IMG/VR virus record: IMGVR_UViG_2778261301_000013
Source: a virus
Lineage: Duplodnaviria; Heunggongvirae; Uroviricota; Caudoviricetes
Length of the DNA: 10,819 bases
Strand: one strand, 5' to 3'
Shown here: positions 5,634-10,819 of the stretch, piece after piece
Position numbering within the stretch: the first letter of the stretch is position 1
Layout: each line of letters starts with the position of its first letter
The notes under the pieces: generated by a model
Seen by the model: only the letters and a program-made list of their open reading frames with translations
Told to the model about the DNA's origin: nothing
The model's database searches: none
Made by a program: the position numbers and the translations under genes

Positions 5634-7545
5634 TCACTCCTCCGGACAGCTTCGCTGCCAGTTCTTTAAGGGTTGGCCGGGTCGTCTCTTCTTCCCGGGA
5701 TTTTGCCAGTACAGCCAGATCAAGCTGCCAGCGTTGCACGGACACACGTAATGCCGCGTAGGCATACACCAGGCAGTCCAGCGCTTCGTTACGCCGCTTT
5801 TTGTTATCCCACAGCAGACGCATCTTTCCTTTTTCCCACTTCTCCACAAGCTCTTCCGCGACCAGTTGCTGCGCCTCTGTCTGCGAAAAAATCTCCGGAT
5901 CATCAGGAAAACGGATGGCATACGACGTGGCTTCATCCACAGGCGTGGGATCGGCTTTCATACGGGCATAGAGAATTTCTTTTGCGGTGTCCGTCCCCAC
6001 TTCACACAGATACACGCCCCGCTGATTGCGGGTTTTTGGCATGGTGATCACCGGCTTGCCATAGACAGATGCGCCTTTTATCGGCAGCACCCGGAAAACA
6101 CCATGTTTTTTTGACCTCTGATAAACGATTTCGCCATCGATCCCCCCGATGTCCCAGCAGACACGAGAAATAGTCATTTCGGTTCCGTCTGCATGGCGGT
6201 ATTTTTTGTTGATCGCCGCATCCACACGTAACAGCGTCTCTTCCTCATCGGGACGCCCCATAATGATGATTTTATCCACCAGAAAGGCTTCCTCTCCCGG
6301 AGCCCATCCCCAGACATACATCTCAAAACGGTTTCGCTGCGAGTCAATGCCCGCCGTCAGATAAACCACCCGGGCAGGCACCGCCGCCGTGTAACGCACA
6401 ACCTTATCCATCAGTACCTGGTGATCGAGTTTTTCGCCCACGGCCTCTTCCCAGGTCTCGCCCAGCGTGGTGTTCACAAAGGTTTTCAGGCCGTTGGGAT
6501 CTTTCAGTGCATCCAGCCAGTCATAGACAATCTGTACCCATGTGGTGAACGGACTGTACGCCGTCCAGATATGGAAAGTGATGGAGCGCGGCGGCGGAAT
6601 TTCATCACCCCGGGCGCTGAAAAACATCAGGCCGTCACGGGTCCACATGCCCGTGTTTTCACAGATCCACCGCCCGTTACTCTGGTCAAGCTCAGACTGA
6701 TGGATCACACAGCCATGATGCTCACAAAGGTAGAAAACACTTTCTGGCTTATTCTTCTCCCACTTAAGACCGAAAGGCGAGGCATCATCGCCAAATTTCA
6801 GATACTGCTCCTCCCCACAGTGCGGACAGGGCACATAAAAACGCATGAAGTGTGCCGACTCGTTAGCGGCTTTTTCGATCTGGCAGGAGCCTTTGATTTT
6901 AGGCGTCGAGCCGCGAATGGATTTTGGCCATACAGAGCCCTCAATACGTTTATCCCCCAGCAGGGTTGGCGAACCCTCTTTTTCAACATCCGGTTCGAAC
7001 GAGGAAAGCTCGTCATAACAGACCACATCCACGGATTTTTCACGGTAGTTTTTTGCTGCCGCACCACCCAGACACCAGAACCCCACACCGGAGGAAAAAC
7101 GCTTCAGGGTGAGCGTATTATCGCGGTGTTTTCTTCCGAACCATGGAGCCAGCTCCAGCAATGCAGGAACATCCCTTATCGTTGGCTCAACATGAGATTT
7201 CATAAAATCTTCAGCAGCTGAGTCCGTGGGCTGAAAAAGAAGGCTGTTGCGTGATTTATGCTCAATAAAATAAGCCTCCACTCCCAGCAACATCTTTGTA
7301 TAACCAACACGGGCAGATTTAATCAGGTTAACCGTGCGAATCAGATCGTTGCCCATACAGTTCATGATGCCAACCTGAAACGGCAGTGTTTCCCACCGCC
7401 CCGGGGTATAAGACGACTCTTTAGGAAGGTAATAATGTTTATTGGCCCACTGAACTGTCGTCAGTGGAACAGGAATAATGAGAGATAAAAGCCCTGTAGC
7501 TATCGCACCGGCTGCATTAGCTGCCTTCTGCGCGTCTGAAATCAT
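5617..7545 (-). CDS. A: Terminase large subunit A-like (642 aa from the ATG at 7545; six-frame ORF extends to 7587)
   Basis: ORF 5617..7587. From [21 protein letters not shown] onward it is collinear with lambda gpA as recalled, including the Walker-type region, [16 protein letters not shown] and the C-terminal nuclease-domain blocks. Start preferred at the ATG at 7545 (MISDAQ...): it gives the lambda-like N-terminal length, has a GGGTGGA SD-like motif upstream, and overlaps the Nu1 3' end by 29 nt as in lambda. The ATG at 7587 has no SD. Confidence 0.95.
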
Positions 7546-8065
7546 CGATCCACCCGCCCACGTTTTCACCGGCCTTAGCTGCAACATTGGAGGCTTTCGC
7601 GATTTCAGTTTTCACCACATCAAGGTGTGATGGTGAAATGTCCGGATATTTACGCTGTAATGTCAACGGCACACGCACAAGTATCCCCGAAATCTCCTGT
7701 GCCACACGTTGCAGAATGAAGGTAAACAGTTCAGTTTCCAGCACTACTCCGTCTTCACGGGCATTTTTCAGTTCCTGCGCATCTGCCTGCGCTTTTGTGA
7801 GCCTGTAGCGTTCATAGTCAATGGTGCCGGGTTGTAAATCTGACTCCGCTGCCGCACGCAAATCGTCCAGTTCTTTGCGGAGCTTTTCGTTTTCGATATC
7901 AGTTTCCCTCTGCGCATACCACTGAATTGCCATGGCAGTATCAAATACAGATTCAATGCCCTTACTACCTTTGGAGGCGCAAGGGAGTCCCTGAGACTGC
8001 CAGCGTTCAATCGTCCGCGGGTCCACGTTGAAAATTTCGGCAAGCCTCTTTTTATTAACCTTCAT
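7517..8065 (-). CDS. Nu1: Terminase small subunit Nu1-like (182 aa)
   Basis: ORF 7517..8065 with ATG at 8065. Translation ([28 protein letters not shown]...[47 protein letters not shown]) is collinear with lambda gpNu1 as recalled (MEVNKKQLADIFGASIRTIQNWQEQGMP...). First gene downstream of cos, as in lambda. Confidence 0.93.
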
Positions 8066-8465: not shown

Positions 8466-8870
8466 TTACTCGAGGCCAAATTTCTTCTTTAAATAGGCCT
8501 TCGTTAACTCCAGCCCAACATCTTTGATTGTACTCAAAGGGGCATCGCTCATTGACTTTAATTTCTCAAAAACCGTAGGTTCATTTAATGCCTGGGCGAA
8601 TTCTTGTCCCTGCGCAGATAGTCGCACGTCGGTACCCATATCTAGCATATGGCCACAATGGCGCATGTAGCCCAGTTTAGTTATGTCATCCGTTATTAGA
8701 TCTTTATTACTGATATAACCTTGCTCAATAAGAAGTAGATAATGAAACATCCCTTCATTCGAGCAGATATCGTACCCCGCATTAGCTAAGTCTTTTGTAG
8801 ATATAAAGGGAGTTTTCGCTTTCAAAAATACCTCAAGCATCCCCTTCATGTATTCTAAATTTTTAACCAC
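8466..8870 (-). CDS. Hypothetical protein, 134 aa, in AT-rich accessory block; no family recognised
   Basis: ORF 8466..8870. GTG start at 8870 preceded by a near-perfect SD (minus-strand TAAGGAGGTTTTT-GTG). Translation MVKNLEYMKGMLEVFLKAKTPFISTKDLANAGYDICSNEGMFHYLLLIEQGYISNKDL... The N-terminal half has a helix-turn-helix-like / winged-helix-like pattern, a weak impression only. Own candidate promoter and terminator. Confidence 0.65.
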   Translation of the reverse strand: MVKNLEYMKGMLEVFLKAKTPFISTKDLANAGYDICSNEGMFHYLLLIEQGYISNKDLITDDITKLGYMRHCGHMLDMGTDVRLSAQGQEFAQALNEPTVFEKLKSMSDAPLSTIKDVGLELTKAYLKKKFGLE

Positions 8871-9005: not shown

Positions 9006-9230
9006 TTAGACATTAGATGGCGCTTTGTCAGTATAGACCCGGTACGCCCTGACAAACATCCCGTTACATTCAGAGTCCGCCTTGATATACGCCAATTCGT
9101 AACCCCGATGCTTTAGCTCTTCACGAGCTCTTTTCTCTTCCTTAGCCATGAAGTTAAGATCTTTAATTTCTGAGTAGGTATATGTTCCCACTATAAAATC
9201 TCTGCCTGGCCGTCCATTTATCAGCTCCAT
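9006..9230 (-). CDS. Hypothetical small protein, 74 aa (possible N-terminal extension to 9365 giving 119 aa); no family recognised
   Basis: Six-frame ORF 9006..9365 begins with GTG with no SD. The internal ATG at 9230 is preceded by GGGAGGA (minus-strand TTTTTGGGAGGACAC-ATG), so the 74-aa product MELINGRPGRDFIVGTYTYSEIKDLNFMAKEEKRAREELKHRGYELAYIKADSECNGMFVRAYRVYTDKAPSNV is preferred. The upstream in-frame region resembles sequence found after the stop of the 93-aa gene, so it may be a gene remnant. Confidence 0.5.
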   Translation of the reverse strand: MELINGRPGRDFIVGTYTYSEIKDLNFMAKEEKRAREELKHRGYELAYIKADSECNGMFVRAYRVYTDKAPSNV

Positions 9231-9247
9231 GTGTCCTCCCAAAAAGT

Positions 9248-9323
9248 TGGTAGTCAGAACATACCATGCTAAGCGAGGTGAAAGCACCTTTATCAAGCCC
9301 CCCGCAGATAGACTTTGTAATGG
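9248..9323. repeat. Diverged direct repeat, copy A (partner at 9681..9743)
   Basis: Plus-strand tggtagtcagaacatacc...ttatcaagccccccgcagatagactttgtaatgg aligns with copy B, tggtggcccagaataaattccggtttcattatcaagcccacccgtaaatgggctttgtaatgg. Shared blocks are TGGTNG..CAGAA, TTATCAAGCCC and CTTTGTAATGG; copy A carries an extra roughly 23 bp and one extra C in the C-run (9298..9303). Confidence 0.6.
9258..9266 (-). promoter_or_regulatory. Candidate extended -10 promoter element (minus-strand TGGTATGTT) for the 74-aa ORF
   Basis: TGnTATGTT on the minus strand about 28 nt upstream of the ATG at 9230, leaving room for a short leader containing the GGGAGGA SD. No convincing -35. Pattern-based only. Confidence 0.25.
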
Positions 9324-9680
9324 AGAGTCATTGAGTAGTTCTCGTAATTCTTTGATTTTCCGCACACTCGTGCAGAAGGAGTTCCCCGTCGGGCTACGGT
9401 CATGGTTAATGCGGGAATACAGCGACGATACAGCGCATGATGTGTCAGGCTTGAATACCTTTATCCGTTAAAAGGGATATCAGTTAAGTTACACCGTGTA
9501 GGGTATAAGCCATTGTCGAGACCACTCATTGAATGGCCTCTGCAATAACCGATGTCTTTCCATCAGTCCGCCACCACAAAGAATCTTTTTTGCCTTAAGG
9601 CAGGAGCTTCATCTTTCAGTGGCTGCCAGTGTTATTTCCCCACTTACTGGCTTGGGTTGTTTCGTGGTACTGCCGTTAAC

Positions 9681-9743
9681 TGGTGGCCCAGAATAAATTC
9701 CGGTTTCATTATCAAGCCCACCCGTAAATGGGCTTTGTAATGG
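9681..9743. repeat. Diverged direct repeat, copy B; begins immediately after the stop codon of the 93-aa ORF (minus-strand sense)
   Basis: See copy A. On the minus strand copy B contains a 7 bp inverted repeat AAGCCCA-TTTACGGG-TGGGCTT. Confidence 0.6.
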
Positions 9744-10025
9744 CTACTTCACTTTTGCTTTTGCTTTTGCTTTTGCTTTTGCTTCCGCTCGCTTACGCCG
9801 GCGCTCTTCTTTCCTCTCGGCTTTTGCCATGTCCATGAATGCCTGCATGATCGAGTTCCGCATCATGTAGCTAACAAAGTGATGATTGACACAGCCGTTG
9901 AGGCGCAGCTGCTCGCCAAACTCATCCACCGAGGCCAATGCTTCCATCATGCCCTTCTCGCCTTTCATGAACTCTGAGAAGTCGCGCCCCGCTCTGGAGG
10001 CGCATTCAATGACACGATCACTCAT
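9744..10025 (-). CDS. Hypothetical protein, 93 aa, with a strongly basic C-terminal tail ending in an (Ala-Lys)n repeat
   Basis: ORF 9744..10025. Its ATG at 10025 overlaps the stop of the upstream KilA-N-like ORF as ATGA (10022..10025), suggesting translational coupling. Translation MSDRVIECASRAGRDFSEFMKGEKGMMEALASVDEFGEQLRLNGCVNHHFVSYMMRNSIMQAFMDMAKAERKEERRRKRAEAKAKAKAKAKVK. No family recognised with confidence. Confidence 0.65.
   Translation of the reverse strand: MSDRVIECASRAGRDFSEFMKGEKGMMEALASVDEFGEQLRLNGCVNHHFVSYMMRNSIMQAFMDMAKAERKEERRRKRAEAKAKAKAKAKVK
9753..9782. repeat. Hexanucleotide simple sequence repeat (TTTTGC)5 on the plus strand = (GCAAAA)5 on the coding strand, encoding AKAKAKAKAK
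   Basis: Five perfect tandem hexamers visible at 9753..9782, followed by a degenerate sixth (ttccgc). Lies within the 3' end of the 93-aa ORF, in frame. Confidence 0.9.
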
Positions 10026-10519
10026 CCCGGAAGCCCGGGGATCGTAATCTGCAGCTGGTTAGCCAGGGAGTTAATCTCAGCGACCAACACTGGCTTCGTA
10101 TAGCGCCATGCTGCCAGCCCTTGTCCGCAGAAGCTCGCCATGTCTTTCTTCTGGTCAAACTCATGACATTTCATGTTGAGCTGCGCACTTAAGCTGTTGC
10201 GATGCTGAAGTTCTCCGGTGAAGTAGTCATCGAGGACTTTATAGGCCGCGTACTTGAACCCGGGGTTTAACCAAGCCGCATAATCGTAAGCAACAAACTT
10301 CCCGCCATATGTTCCACCGTGTACACCGCGCTCAGTAAAAACCACAGATTCGTGGTTTTTCTCCAGCTCGGCTAAGAACTCTTTGGTCTGCTTGTTTCGC
10401 AGGTAGTGGTAAGGCGATTCAGATTCACTTTTACCACTGGCTTTCCACATATCAGTGAGGCAGATCATGCCATCTTCACCGATACGAATTGGTTGATTGA
10501 AGAGGGTTAATGATTTCAT
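10022..10519 (-). CDS. KilA-N domain-containing protein (165 aa), putative DNA-binding
   Basis: ORF 10022..10519 with ATG at 10519. Translation MKSLTLFNQPIRIGEDGMICLTDMWKASGKSESESPYHYLRNKQTKEFLAELEKN...GVHGGTYGGKFVAYDYAAWLNPGFKYAAY shows the characteristic KilA-N/APSES-type pattern (hydrophobic run + TD..KA.GK, then TKEFL, then GT....VA.DYA.WL.P.F). Assigned from recalled family features, not a search. Confidence 0.7.
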   Translation of the reverse strand: MKSLTLFNQPIRIGEDGMICLTDMWKASGKSESESPYHYLRNKQTKEFLAELEKNHESVVFTERGVHGGTYGGKFVAYDYAAWLNPGFKYAAYKVLDDYFTGELQHRNSLSAQLNMKCHEFDQKKDMASFCGQGLAAWRYTKPVLVAEINSLANQLQITIPGLPG

Positions 10520-10634
10520 AGCGTGTACCTACTCTTTGAAATGAACCTTTGCCGCACAGGAAACCAGCCCACCGAGGCTCGCCAGCACTAACTGGTATCC
10601 TCAAAGGCCCATTCCAAAGGGGCAGGTTCGGTGT

Positions 10635-10688
10635 AAAAAACATGCGTTGCGGTACGCATTTATTGCAAAAAGCCCCGCATCGCGAGGC
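10635..10688 (-). terminator. Two tandem intrinsic terminator candidates between the Rz stop and the KilA-N-like ORF
   Basis: Distal: minus-strand RNA GCCUCGC-GAU-GCGGGGC (7 bp stem; plus-strand 10672..10688) followed by UUUUU (plus-strand 10667..10671). Proximal: AUGCGU-ACCGCA-ACGCAU (perfect 6 bp stem; plus-strand 10642..10659) followed by G then UUUUUU (plus-strand 10635..10640). Confidence 0.5.
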
Positions 10689-10720
10689 TCATTAAATGGA
10701 CTTTGTGATTTGCAAAAAAA

Positions 10721-10819
10721 TTATTTCAGGCATTGCGTCCTGATGTATTCCTGCAGGTAGTTAACCTGCGCGGTTATCTTGTCGATTCCACTTCGGAGAC
10801 GGTAATAATTGAGTTCAGC
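10721..10819 (-). CDS. Rz: Rz-like i-spanin, C-terminal 32 codons only (gene runs off the window end)
   Basis: Minus-strand frame ending at TAA (10723..10721) translates ...AELNYYRLRSGIDKITAQVNYLQEYIRTQCLK*, resembling the lambda Rz C-terminus as recalled (...RDYFTLRERLITMQKQLEGTQKYINEQCR*). Position upstream of cos on the late strand fits. Short partial sequence, so moderate confidence. Confidence 0.55.
   Translation of the reverse strand, partial: AELNYYRLRSGIDKITAQVNYLQEYIRTQCLK
10774..10818 (-). CDS. Rz1: Possible Rz1-like o-spanin C-terminus embedded in the +1 frame of Rz (last 14 codons)
   Basis: Alternate minus-strand frame reads ...LNSIITVSEVESTR* with its stop inside Rz, reminiscent of the lambda Rz1 C-terminus (...PLNGIISPSERG*) and of the embedded Rz1 arrangement. 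Very short; weak evidence. Confidence 0.3.
   Translation of the reverse strand: MNSIITVSEVESTR

What the first reader, a model, noticed from the sequence alone, without database searches (positions are those of the whole stretch)
9753..9782. In-frame hexanucleotide repeat (GCAAAA)5 encoding an (Ala-Lys)n tail, a potential length-variable basic C-terminus
Five perfect tandem 6-nt units at the 3' end of the 93-aa ORF encode AKAKAKAKAK directly after an arginine/lysine-rich stretch (RKEERRRKRAEAK...). A 6-nt unit keeps the reading frame, so slipped-strand changes would vary tail length without destroying the protein. Such contingency-like repeats are unusual inside phage cargo genes, and the basic tail suggests nucleic-acid or membrane interaction.
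Basis: seen in the sequence. Interest (0 to 1): 0.45.

Follow-up and report, generated by a model that had tools for sequence, protein, structure and literature searches.

The report
Variable Ala-Lys repeat in phage protein tail
A perfect 6-base repeat at the end of a small, uncharacterised lambdoid-prophage gene really does change copy number (1 to 9) between otherwise identical prophages, lengthening a basic protein tail, but it behaves like an ordinary in-frame microsatellite rather than a genetic switch.

Summary
On the minus strand, (GCAAAA)5 lies at 9753-9782, followed by GTG AAG TAG, at the end of a 93-aa ORF (9744-10025). The ORF is a real, conserved gene: the HK620 HkbL / PHROG 875 family, of unknown function. 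It always follows a KilA-N/ORF11CD3 gene with an ATGA overlap, between the lysis genes and the terminase.

The predicted length variability is confirmed.
- Related prophages carry 1, 2, 3, 4, 5, 6 or 9 units.
- Prophages identical over 2.8-5.5 kb differ only in this tract (5, 6 or 9 units).
- A second lineage, from an Enterobacter-type prophage context, expanded the same unit independently.
- Every unit uses the same codons, which points to DNA slippage rather than selection for a peptide repeat.

This is not a contingency switch. All alleles stay in frame, the tract sits at the extreme C-terminus, and sets of like-named E. coli genomes share one copy number. Short alleles dominate.

The RRRKR basic motif upstream of the tract is conserved across the family. 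The Ala-Lys extension is lineage-specific and adds to a predicted long C-terminal helix.

The protein's function is unknown: there is no Pfam, NCBIfam, PDB or fold match.

Verdict: a real, ordinary in-frame VNTR and a new example of a known kind. Interest is low to moderate.

The parts
9753..9782 (-). Perfect hexanucleotide array (GCAAAA)5 encoding (Ala-Lys)5; the polymorphic tract
   Evidence: Copy number is 1-9 in relatives.
9744..9752 (-). GTG AAG TAG (Val-Lys-stop). The GTG marks the expanded lineage; one-unit alleles have GCG AAG TAG.
   Evidence: all 47 alleles with at least 2 units end GTGAAGTAG, and about 91 one-unit alleles end GCGAAG.
9783..9821 (-). Codons for residues 69-81 (AERKEERRRKRAE), the family-conserved basic motif just upstream of the repeat
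   Evidence: Alignment A1: E73, R75, K78, R79 and K83 are nearly invariant. AF2 places these residues in helix 48-92.
9744..10025 (-). 93-aa ORF, HK620 HkbL / PHROG 875 family. The predicted fold is three helices with a long basic C-terminal helix.
10022..10519 (-). Upstream partner gene, KilA-N + ORF11CD3 (165 aa). Its TGA stop overlaps the ATG of the 93-aa ORF (ATGA).
   Evidence: Pfam E = 1e-15 and 2e-13. Adjacent in 128 of 146 loci and.
9707..9743 (-). Conserved stem-loop directly after the stop codon (CCATTACAAAGCCCATTTACGGGTGGGCTTGATAATG). Mosaic divergence starts right after it.
   Evidence: 13 predicted pairs, 5 of them with changes on both sides that keep the pair.

Best explanation
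The tract is an in-frame coding microsatellite (VNTR) produced and varied by slipped-strand mispairing during DNA replication.

How it arose and behaves:
- The ancestral gene end, GAA GCA AAA GCG AAG TAG (AKAK*, as in HK620 hkbL), is already an imperfect two-unit repeat.
- In one E. coli prophage lineage, marked by GTG in the last unit, GCAAAA was duplicated. Once two or more perfect units existed, the tract began to gain and lose whole units.
- Each unit adds Ala-Lys: +1 charge, and about 3 A if helical. It is added to the far end of a long, basic C-terminal helix of a small three-helix protein.
- The unit is 6 nt and lies after the folded core and after the conserved RRRKR motif. Changes therefore never break the frame or the fold and are tolerated, so the variation is mostly neutral or nearly neutral. 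It is not an on/off switch.

The protein itself (inferred, not shown) is most likely a small partner of the KilA-N/ORF11CD3 DNA-binding protein, to which it appears to be translationally coupled. It would be expressed from the late operon, with the basic tail contacting nucleic acid or another polyanion non-specifically.
For: Shown:
- The repeat is exact and in frame.
- Copy numbers in IMG/VR and metagenome loci are 1 (about 91 loci), 2 (16), 3 (18), 4 (7), 5 (4), 6 (1) and 9 (1).
- Among the 60 listed best hits in E. coli complete genomes, record spans imply 6 units x1, 4 x4, 3 about x33 and 2 about x21.
- Loci L106, L060 and L119 carry 5, 6 and 9 units. They differ by 0-2 substitutions over 2.8-5.5 kb, apart from a single gap of 6, 18 or 24 nt at the tract. 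Fifteen pairs with at most 2 differences in 2 kb of flank differ in copy number.
- All units are the identical codon pair GCA AAA with no synonymous variants. Imperfect versions (GCAAAAGCGAAG; ACAAAAGCAAAGGCGAAG) showed no length variants among the loci examined.
- An independent expansion, GTAAAA(GCAAAA)3GCGAAA, occurs in a different lineage (P0004/L146).
- The folded core and RRRKR are conserved, but the extreme C-terminus varies across the family.
- AF2 gives pLDDT 92 with helix 48-92 running through the tail.
- The ATGA overlap and adjacency to the KilA-N gene hold in 128/146 loci.
Against: - No reads were available, so variation within one population, and the actual mutation rate, are unknown.
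- Neutrality is inferred only from the allele spectrum and from the lack of conservation of the extension.
- Recurrent independent expansion could also reflect selection.
- The protein has no detectable homologue of known function.
- Partnership with the KilA-N protein and polyanion binding rest on gene order and composition alone.
Confidence: 0.7

Rival explanations
1. Adaptive 'tuning knob'. Tail length is under diversifying or fluctuating selection because it tunes the protein's affinity for a nucleic acid or a host or phage target. The repeat is kept because it generates useful variants quickly.
For: The same unit expanded independently in two lineages. The tract is the fastest-changing site in kilobases of identical sequence. 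The basic motif next to it is conserved, so the C-terminal region matters.
Against: Frequencies fall steadily with length, and one-unit non-repeat alleles dominate. Sets of like-named genomes share a copy number: the 8 listed OkiPb01701-01710 genomes all have 3, and the ETEC1732/1734, MLI023K1/K2, Z1323CEC and TUM pairs are identical. Other family members end in unrelated short K-rich tails. Identical codons in all units fit mutation pressure alone.
Confidence: 0.15
2. A DNA-level element. The tract or the gene end acts as a recombination joint between mosaic modules, or as part of a regulatory or terminator region, and the encoded peptide is incidental.
For: Many BLAST alignments start or stop at the gene's 3' end: query positions 143-178 of window 9600-10200. 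Phage L lacks the KilA-N/hkbL module but keeps the last 21 nt (GCGGAAGCAAAAGCGAAGTAG) right after Rz. A conserved hairpin follows the stop codon.
Against: The joints exist in one-unit alleles, so they do not need the expanded array. BLAST's low-complexity filter itself truncates alignments at repeats. The tract is always in frame within a conserved ORF. A 6-bp period is out of helical phase. There is no Rfam match, and no T-run follows the hairpin on the gene strand.
Confidence: 0.05
3. An assembly or sequencing artefact of a low-complexity tract.
For: Short repeats can be mis-assembled. Some database proteins of this family are frameshifted at or near the tract (P0002, P0008, P0013, P0065, P0067, P0113).
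Against: A 30-nt tract is far shorter than a read. The exact 93-aa protein is on record on 92 contigs from several sources. Discrete alleles recur in complete genomes and cultured phages: HK620 has 1 unit, and ECP1 (L122) has 3.
Confidence: 0.01

Closest known systems
HK620 HkbL (AAK28887.1) / PHROG 875; HK97p61
   Same: It is the same protein, identical over residues 1-83, in the same position after a KilA-N gene between Rz and the terminase genes.
   Different: HK620 has one GCAAAA unit and ends AKAK* (85 aa). The window has five units and ends ...AKVK* (93 aa). The HK97 record is frameshifted by an extra G. No function is known for any member.
Hexanucleotide VNTR loci of enterobacteria used for MLVA typing (e.g. 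Salmonella Typhimurium STTR5, STTR6 and STTR10; PMC5183578)
   Same: The unit is 6 bp in a perfect tandem array. The published loci change mostly by single units (PMC5183578). Here the steps seen between near-identical flanks are 1, 3 and 4 units.
   Different: The MLVA loci have longer arrays (typically 6-14 units) and measurable in vitro mutation. This array is short (2-9 units) and looks stable within sets of like-named genomes. No paper describing this locus was found.
Simple-sequence contingency loci (phase-variable genes of Haemophilus, Neisseria, Campylobacter; from general knowledge)
   Same: Slipped-strand mispairing in a repeat inside a coding region generates heritable, reversible variants.
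   Different: Contingency loci use units not divisible by 3, or promoter repeats, to switch expression on and off at high frequency. Here every allele is in frame, at the extreme C-terminus, with no switching.
Ala/Lys-rich basic tails of DNA-binding proteins (histone H1 C-terminal domain, chlamydial Hc1, mycobacterial HU/Hlp, AlgP) and arginine-rich motifs such as the lambda N N-terminus (recalled from memory; leads only)
   Same: The composition is similar: a low-complexity A/K-rich stretch next to an RRRKR-type patch, predicted helical, with net charge +9 over the last 25 residues.
   Different: No sequence or fold homology was detected, and binding is untested. The tail is much shorter than H1-type tails.

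Membership tests
In-frame coding microsatellite / VNTR | Perfect head-to-tail copies of a short unit | tested here: met
   TRF: period 6, 5.5 copies, 100% matches; sequence.
In-frame coding microsatellite / VNTR | Copy number differs among related sequences in whole units, with conserved flanks | tested here: met
   1-9 units. Spans in E. coli genomes differ by multiples of 6. Flanks are identical over kilobases.
In-frame coding microsatellite / VNTR | Unit length divisible by 3, so the reading frame is kept | tested here: met
   All alleles translate to (AK)n + VK/AK + stop.
Simple-sequence contingency (phase-variable) locus | A change in repeat number switches expression on or off, by frameshift or promoter spacing | tested here: not met
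   The 6-nt unit sits at the 3' end of the ORF, and no allele with a whole number of units truncates the protein.
Simple-sequence contingency (phase-variable) locus | High-frequency variation within a clonal population | not testable with these tools
   No read data were available. Indirectly, sets of like-named genomes (assumed clonal) share one copy number, while near-identical prophages from different isolates differ.
HK620 HkbL / PHROG 875 protein family | Full-length sequence match to the family profile | tested here: met
   phrog_875, E = 4.2e-54, residues 1-85 against profile positions 1-85 of 85. Identical to HK620 HkbL over residues 1-83.
HK620 HkbL / PHROG 875 protein family | Synteny: immediately downstream of a KilA-N gene, between the lysis cassette and the packaging genes | tested here: met
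   (128/146 adjacent).
H1/Hc1-like basic DNA-binding tail, or arginine-rich RNA-binding motif | Demonstrated nucleic-acid binding mediated by the tail | not testable with these tools
   Only composition (+9 net charge in residues 69-93) and the predicted helix are available.
H1/Hc1-like basic DNA-binding tail, or arginine-rich RNA-binding motif | Detectable homology to a known member | tested here: not met
   No Pfam or NCBIfam hit. The best PDB sequence hit has E = 0.13. No Foldseek hit at E <= 0.001 in PDB or BFVD.

The most novel reading that the evidence does not exclude
The Ala-Lys tract is a phage-borne evolutionary 'tuning knob'. The small protein works with the KilA-N/ORF11CD3 protein, to which it appears to be translationally coupled. 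Its arginine-rich, ARM-like C-terminal helix binds a nucleic acid, possibly the conserved stem-loop that directly follows its own stop codon. Slippage-driven changes in tail length would then adjust that interaction, giving prophage lineages rapidly evolvable control of a late-operon accessory function such as regulation, exclusion or counter-defence.
Probability: 0.08. Interest if true: 0.5.

Novelty: new member of a known kind. Interest (0 to 1): 0.22.

Why it matters
As it stands, this is a clean, verified example of a coding microsatellite inside a widespread lambdoid-prophage accessory gene.

- **Practical use:** it is a possible typing marker for closely related prophages, because it varies where kilobases of flank do not.
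- **Biological value:** it shows that the extreme C-terminus of the HkbL-family protein tolerates 2 to 18 extra residues, which helps delimit the functional core and the conserved RRRKR motif.

It would matter more only if tail length proved to affect a phenotype of the unstudied KilA-N/HkbL two-gene module, which is present in about a quarter of complete E. coli genomes (1474 of 5426 had a match).

Tried and rejected
- **Function by homology.** Pfam and NCBIfam gave nothing for the 93-aa protein. PADLOC gave nothing for it, only a weak KilA-N-type hit of the neighbouring gene to candidate PDC-S22. The best PDB sequence hit had E = 0.13, to ribosomal protein S6, and I treat it as a compositional match. 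An exhaustive HMMER search found only 21 representatives at 50% identity, all in the same narrow family or fragments of it.
- **Function by fold.** The AF2 model is confident (pLDDT 92). Foldseek against PDB and BFVD gave only generic helical-bundle matches, none at E <= 0.001.
- **RNA element.** There is no Rfam family anywhere in the window.
- **Longer alleles in metagenomes.** A scan for the anchor plus at least 5 units found nothing. A second scan with the 2-unit end pattern found 11 contigs with 2-4 units.
- **Species breadth.** The genome-contig scan gave 3 hits. One is an enterobacterial prophage fragment binned into a Nanosynbacter MAG. The other two are unrelated to the window and are probably chance 21-mers.
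- **Literature.** Nothing was found on hkbL or on this repeat as an MLVA or VNTR locus. The ORF11CD3 papers were not relevant.
- **Rejected ideas.** A phase-variation switch (the frame is always kept), an artefact (recurs in independent complete genomes), and an intrinsic terminator formed by the tract (no suitable hairpin plus T-run on the gene strand).

Full report
**1. The observation**

The + strand of the window reads TTTTGC five times at 9753-9782. On the minus strand this is GCA AAA x5, preceded by GAA and followed by GTG AAG TAG (stop at 9744-9746). Tandem Repeats Finder reports 9752-9784, period 6, 5.5 copies, 100% matches. It is the only perfect array in the 10.8-kb window.

The ORF 9744..10025 (-) is 93 aa and ends ...MAKAERKEERRRKRAEAKAKAKAKAKVK.

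Chance does not explain it. Only 1 of 2000 shuffles of the window contained even three perfect copies of any hexamer.

**2. The gene and its setting**

The window is the late region of a lambda-like prophage, read on the minus strand. Nu1 lies at 7517-8065 (Pfam Phage_Nu1, E = 2e-81). Large ORFs downstream look like the terminase large subunit, portal, protease/scaffold, decoration and major capsid genes. I identified these from the ORF translations and from my own knowledge of lambda; they were not searched.

The 93-aa ORF matches PHROG 875 (unknown function) over its full length, E = 4e-54. It has no Pfam, NCBIfam or PADLOC match.

- It is the same protein as HK620 HkbL (AAK28887.1, 85 aa), identical over residues 1-83.
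- The exact 93-aa sequence is on record as 'MULTISPECIES: hypothetical protein [Escherichia]' on 92 contigs.
- It is a real gene. Homologues occur in Escherichia, Salmonella, Enterobacter, Klebsiella, Citrobacter and Rouxiella. Variable sites fall 17/9/37 on codon positions 1/2/3.
- The family is narrow: an exhaustive HMMER search found only 21 representatives at 50% identity.

The gene always sits directly after a 165-aa KilA-N + ORF11CD3 gene (10022-10519; Pfam E = 1e-15 and 2e-13). The two genes overlap by ATGA. They are adjacent in 128 of 146 loci that carry the small gene, and in every Enterobacter-type context examined. The pair lies between the Rz/spanin gene and the packaging genes, whatever those packaging genes are.

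The pair is accessory. Phage L lacks it but retains its last 21 nt (GCGGAAGCAAAAGCGAAGTAG) right after Rz. In the HK97 record the gene is frameshifted by one extra G.

**3. Is the tract length-variable? Yes.**

The tracts were:

| Units | Loci | Allele end |
|---|---|---|
| 1 | 92 | GCAAAA GCGAAG TAG (or close variants) |
| 2 | 9 | GTGAAG TAG |
| 3 | 11 | GTGAAG TAG |
| 4 | 5 | GTGAAG TAG |
| 5 | 2 | GTGAAG TAG |
| 6 | 1 | GTGAAG TAG |
| 9 | 1 | GTGAAG TAG |

Every allele with at least 2 units ends GTG AAG TAG, whereas one-unit alleles end GCG AAG TAG. The expanded alleles therefore form one lineage.

A second scan for the expanded end pattern, plus a metagenome scan, brought the expanded set to 47 sequences: 2 units x16, 3 x18, 4 x7, 5 x4, 6 x1 and 9 x1.

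In 5,426 complete E. coli genomes, a synthetic 12-unit query returned record spans that differ by multiples of 6. Among the 60 best rows listed, these imply 6 units in one genome, 4 in four, 3 in about 33 and 2 in about 21 (see also the 595/589/583/577-bp spans).

Among cultured phages, HK620 and Dewey have 1 unit (both 85 aa). ECP1 (L122) has 3.

**4. How fast it changes, and by what mechanism**

The tract is the fastest-changing site in its neighbourhood.

- L106, L060 and L119 carry 5, 6 and 9 units.
- Over 2.8-5.5 kb of overlap they differ by 0-2 substitutions plus one gap of 6, 18 or 24 nt at the tract.
- Fifteen pairs of loci with at most 2 differences in 2 kb of flank differ in copy number.

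All units in all 47 expanded alleles are the identical codon pair GCA AAA. A peptide repeat maintained by selection would be expected to accumulate synonymous differences, so this homogeneity is the signature of DNA slippage (inference).

Imperfect versions of the same tail showed no length variants among the loci examined. These are GCAAAAGCGAAG and the ACAAAAGCAAAGGCGAAG allele from Enterobacter-named records.

A different lineage (P0004/L146), with different flanking codons, has independently expanded the same unit: GTAAAA(GCAAAA)3GCGAAA.

On the other side, sets of like-named genomes share one copy number, and I take these to be clonal from their names and matching coordinates. All 8 listed OkiPb01701-01710 genomes have 3 units. 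The ETEC1732/1734, MLI023K1/K2, Z1323CEC0001/9/16 and TUM18530/18780 sets are each uniform. Allele frequency also falls with length. This is the behaviour of a short VNTR, not of a hypermutable phase-variation tract.

**5. What the variation does to the protein**

AlphaFold2, run with a 30-sequence alignment, gives a confident model (mean pLDDT 92). It has helices at 3-20, 26-42 and 48-92. The third helix runs out of the small bundle through the basic motif and the Ala-Lys tract. pLDDT falls to about 72 in the last block.

In the family alignment the core and the motif KEERRRKR are nearly invariant. The residues after it are K-rich but differ between lineages: AKAK, AKTK, AKKK, KKKG, EEKKK, TKAKAK.

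The last 25 residues carry net charge +9 and the core carries -2. Going from 1 to 5 units raises the protein's net charge from +3 to +7.

Each unit therefore lengthens a solvent-exposed basic helix by two residues without touching the fold or the conserved motif. That explains why all lengths are tolerated. It does not show that length matters.

**6. Function**

Function is unknown. The best PDB sequence hit has E = 0.13. Foldseek against PDB and BFVD gives only generic helical bundles, with no hit at E <= 0.001. Literature searches for hkbL, for the repeat unit together with MLVA, and for ORF11CD3 found nothing relevant.

The model I commit to is inference, based on gene order, the ATGA overlap and composition. 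The protein is a small partner of the KilA-N/ORF11CD3 DNA-binding protein in a mobile two-gene accessory module of the late operon. Its basic C-terminal helix contacts nucleic acid or another polyanion.

The similarity of RRRKRAEAK to arginine-rich RNA-binding motifs, and of the Ala-Lys tail to H1/Hc1-type tails, is recalled from memory. It is a lead only.

**7. Comparison with what is known**

Mechanistically this is a hexanucleotide VNTR. It resembles the 6-bp MLVA loci of Salmonella Typhimurium, which mutate mostly by single units (PMC5183578).

It shares the slippage mechanism of contingency loci but fails their defining feature, since no allele switches expression. I therefore do not file it as a contingency locus.

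It is a member of the HkbL / PHROG 875 family by sequence and by synteny.

**8. Verdict**

- The 'contingency-like' framing and the functional suggestions are not supported or are untested.
- It is a new example of a known kind of feature, of low to moderate interest.

Noticed in passing
window 9707-9743 (- strand), directly after the stop codon: A conserved stem-loop, CCATTACAAAGCCCATTTACGGGTGGGCTTGATAATG, follows the gene in every lineage. RNAalifold predicts 13 pairs, 5 of them with changes on both sides that keep the pair. There is no T-run on the gene strand. Its function is unknown.
   Followed up: partly
window about 9700-9707, and 9551; loci: Mosaic breakpoints are sharp. Sequences diverge into at least three unrelated continuations immediately after ...GGGCTTGATAATG. 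A second break lies at about 9551.
   Followed up: partly
L131 (Salmonella phage L, MW013502.1), about locus 1305-1330: Phage L lacks the KilA-N/HkbL module but keeps the last 21 nt of the gene (GCGGAAGCAAAAGCGAAGTAG), plus the downstream hairpin, right after Rz. This is a deletion or insertion scar inside the gene's tail.
   Followed up: partly
L130 (HK97, NC_002167.1), locus 1097-1330: HK97p61 is the same gene with one extra G (TACATGGATGCGG against TACATGATGCGG). This shifts the frame and removes the basic tail, and is either a pseudogene or an old sequencing error. Its upstream neighbour is a different, 242-aa KilA-N protein.
   Followed up: partly
proteins P0002, P0008, P0013, P0065, P0067, P0113: Several database proteins read ...AEAKRSSHYKA... 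They are frameshifted within or near the A-runs of the tract and read through into the downstream hairpin region. Most come from Logan or ENA assemblies. Whether they are real variants or errors was not resolved.
   Followed up: no
L133 (JARKOR010000234.1, 'Candidatus Nanosynbacter' MAG): This 4-kb contig is 98.4% identical to window 9551-10819 and carries the 3-unit allele. It is almost certainly an enterobacterial prophage fragment mis-binned into the MAG. L132 and L134 share only the 21-mer.
   Followed up: partly
window 8466-8870 (-) and 9006-9365 (-): Two further conserved phage ORFs of unknown function (PHROG 585 and PHROG 6100) lie between the HkbL gene and Nu1. They have no Pfam, NCBIfam or PADLOC hit.
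   Followed up: no
window 10022-10519 (-): The KilA-N/ORF11CD3 protein gives a weak partial hit (E = 1e-8, residues 60-90) to the PADLOC candidate defence protein PDC-S22. This is probably only shared KilA-N similarity.
   Followed up: no
L043, position 620: This is the only other perfect hexanucleotide array with at least 4 copies in 1.29 Mb of related prophage DNA: (AGAGCC-type unit) x5. It was not examined.
   Followed up: no
window 9587-9606 (+ strand): A terminator-like hairpin, TTTTTGCCTTAAGGCAGGAG, followed by a T-rich tail. A terminator is annotated on that strand just upstream of the matched segment in the phage L record, at roughly the equivalent position.
   Followed up: no
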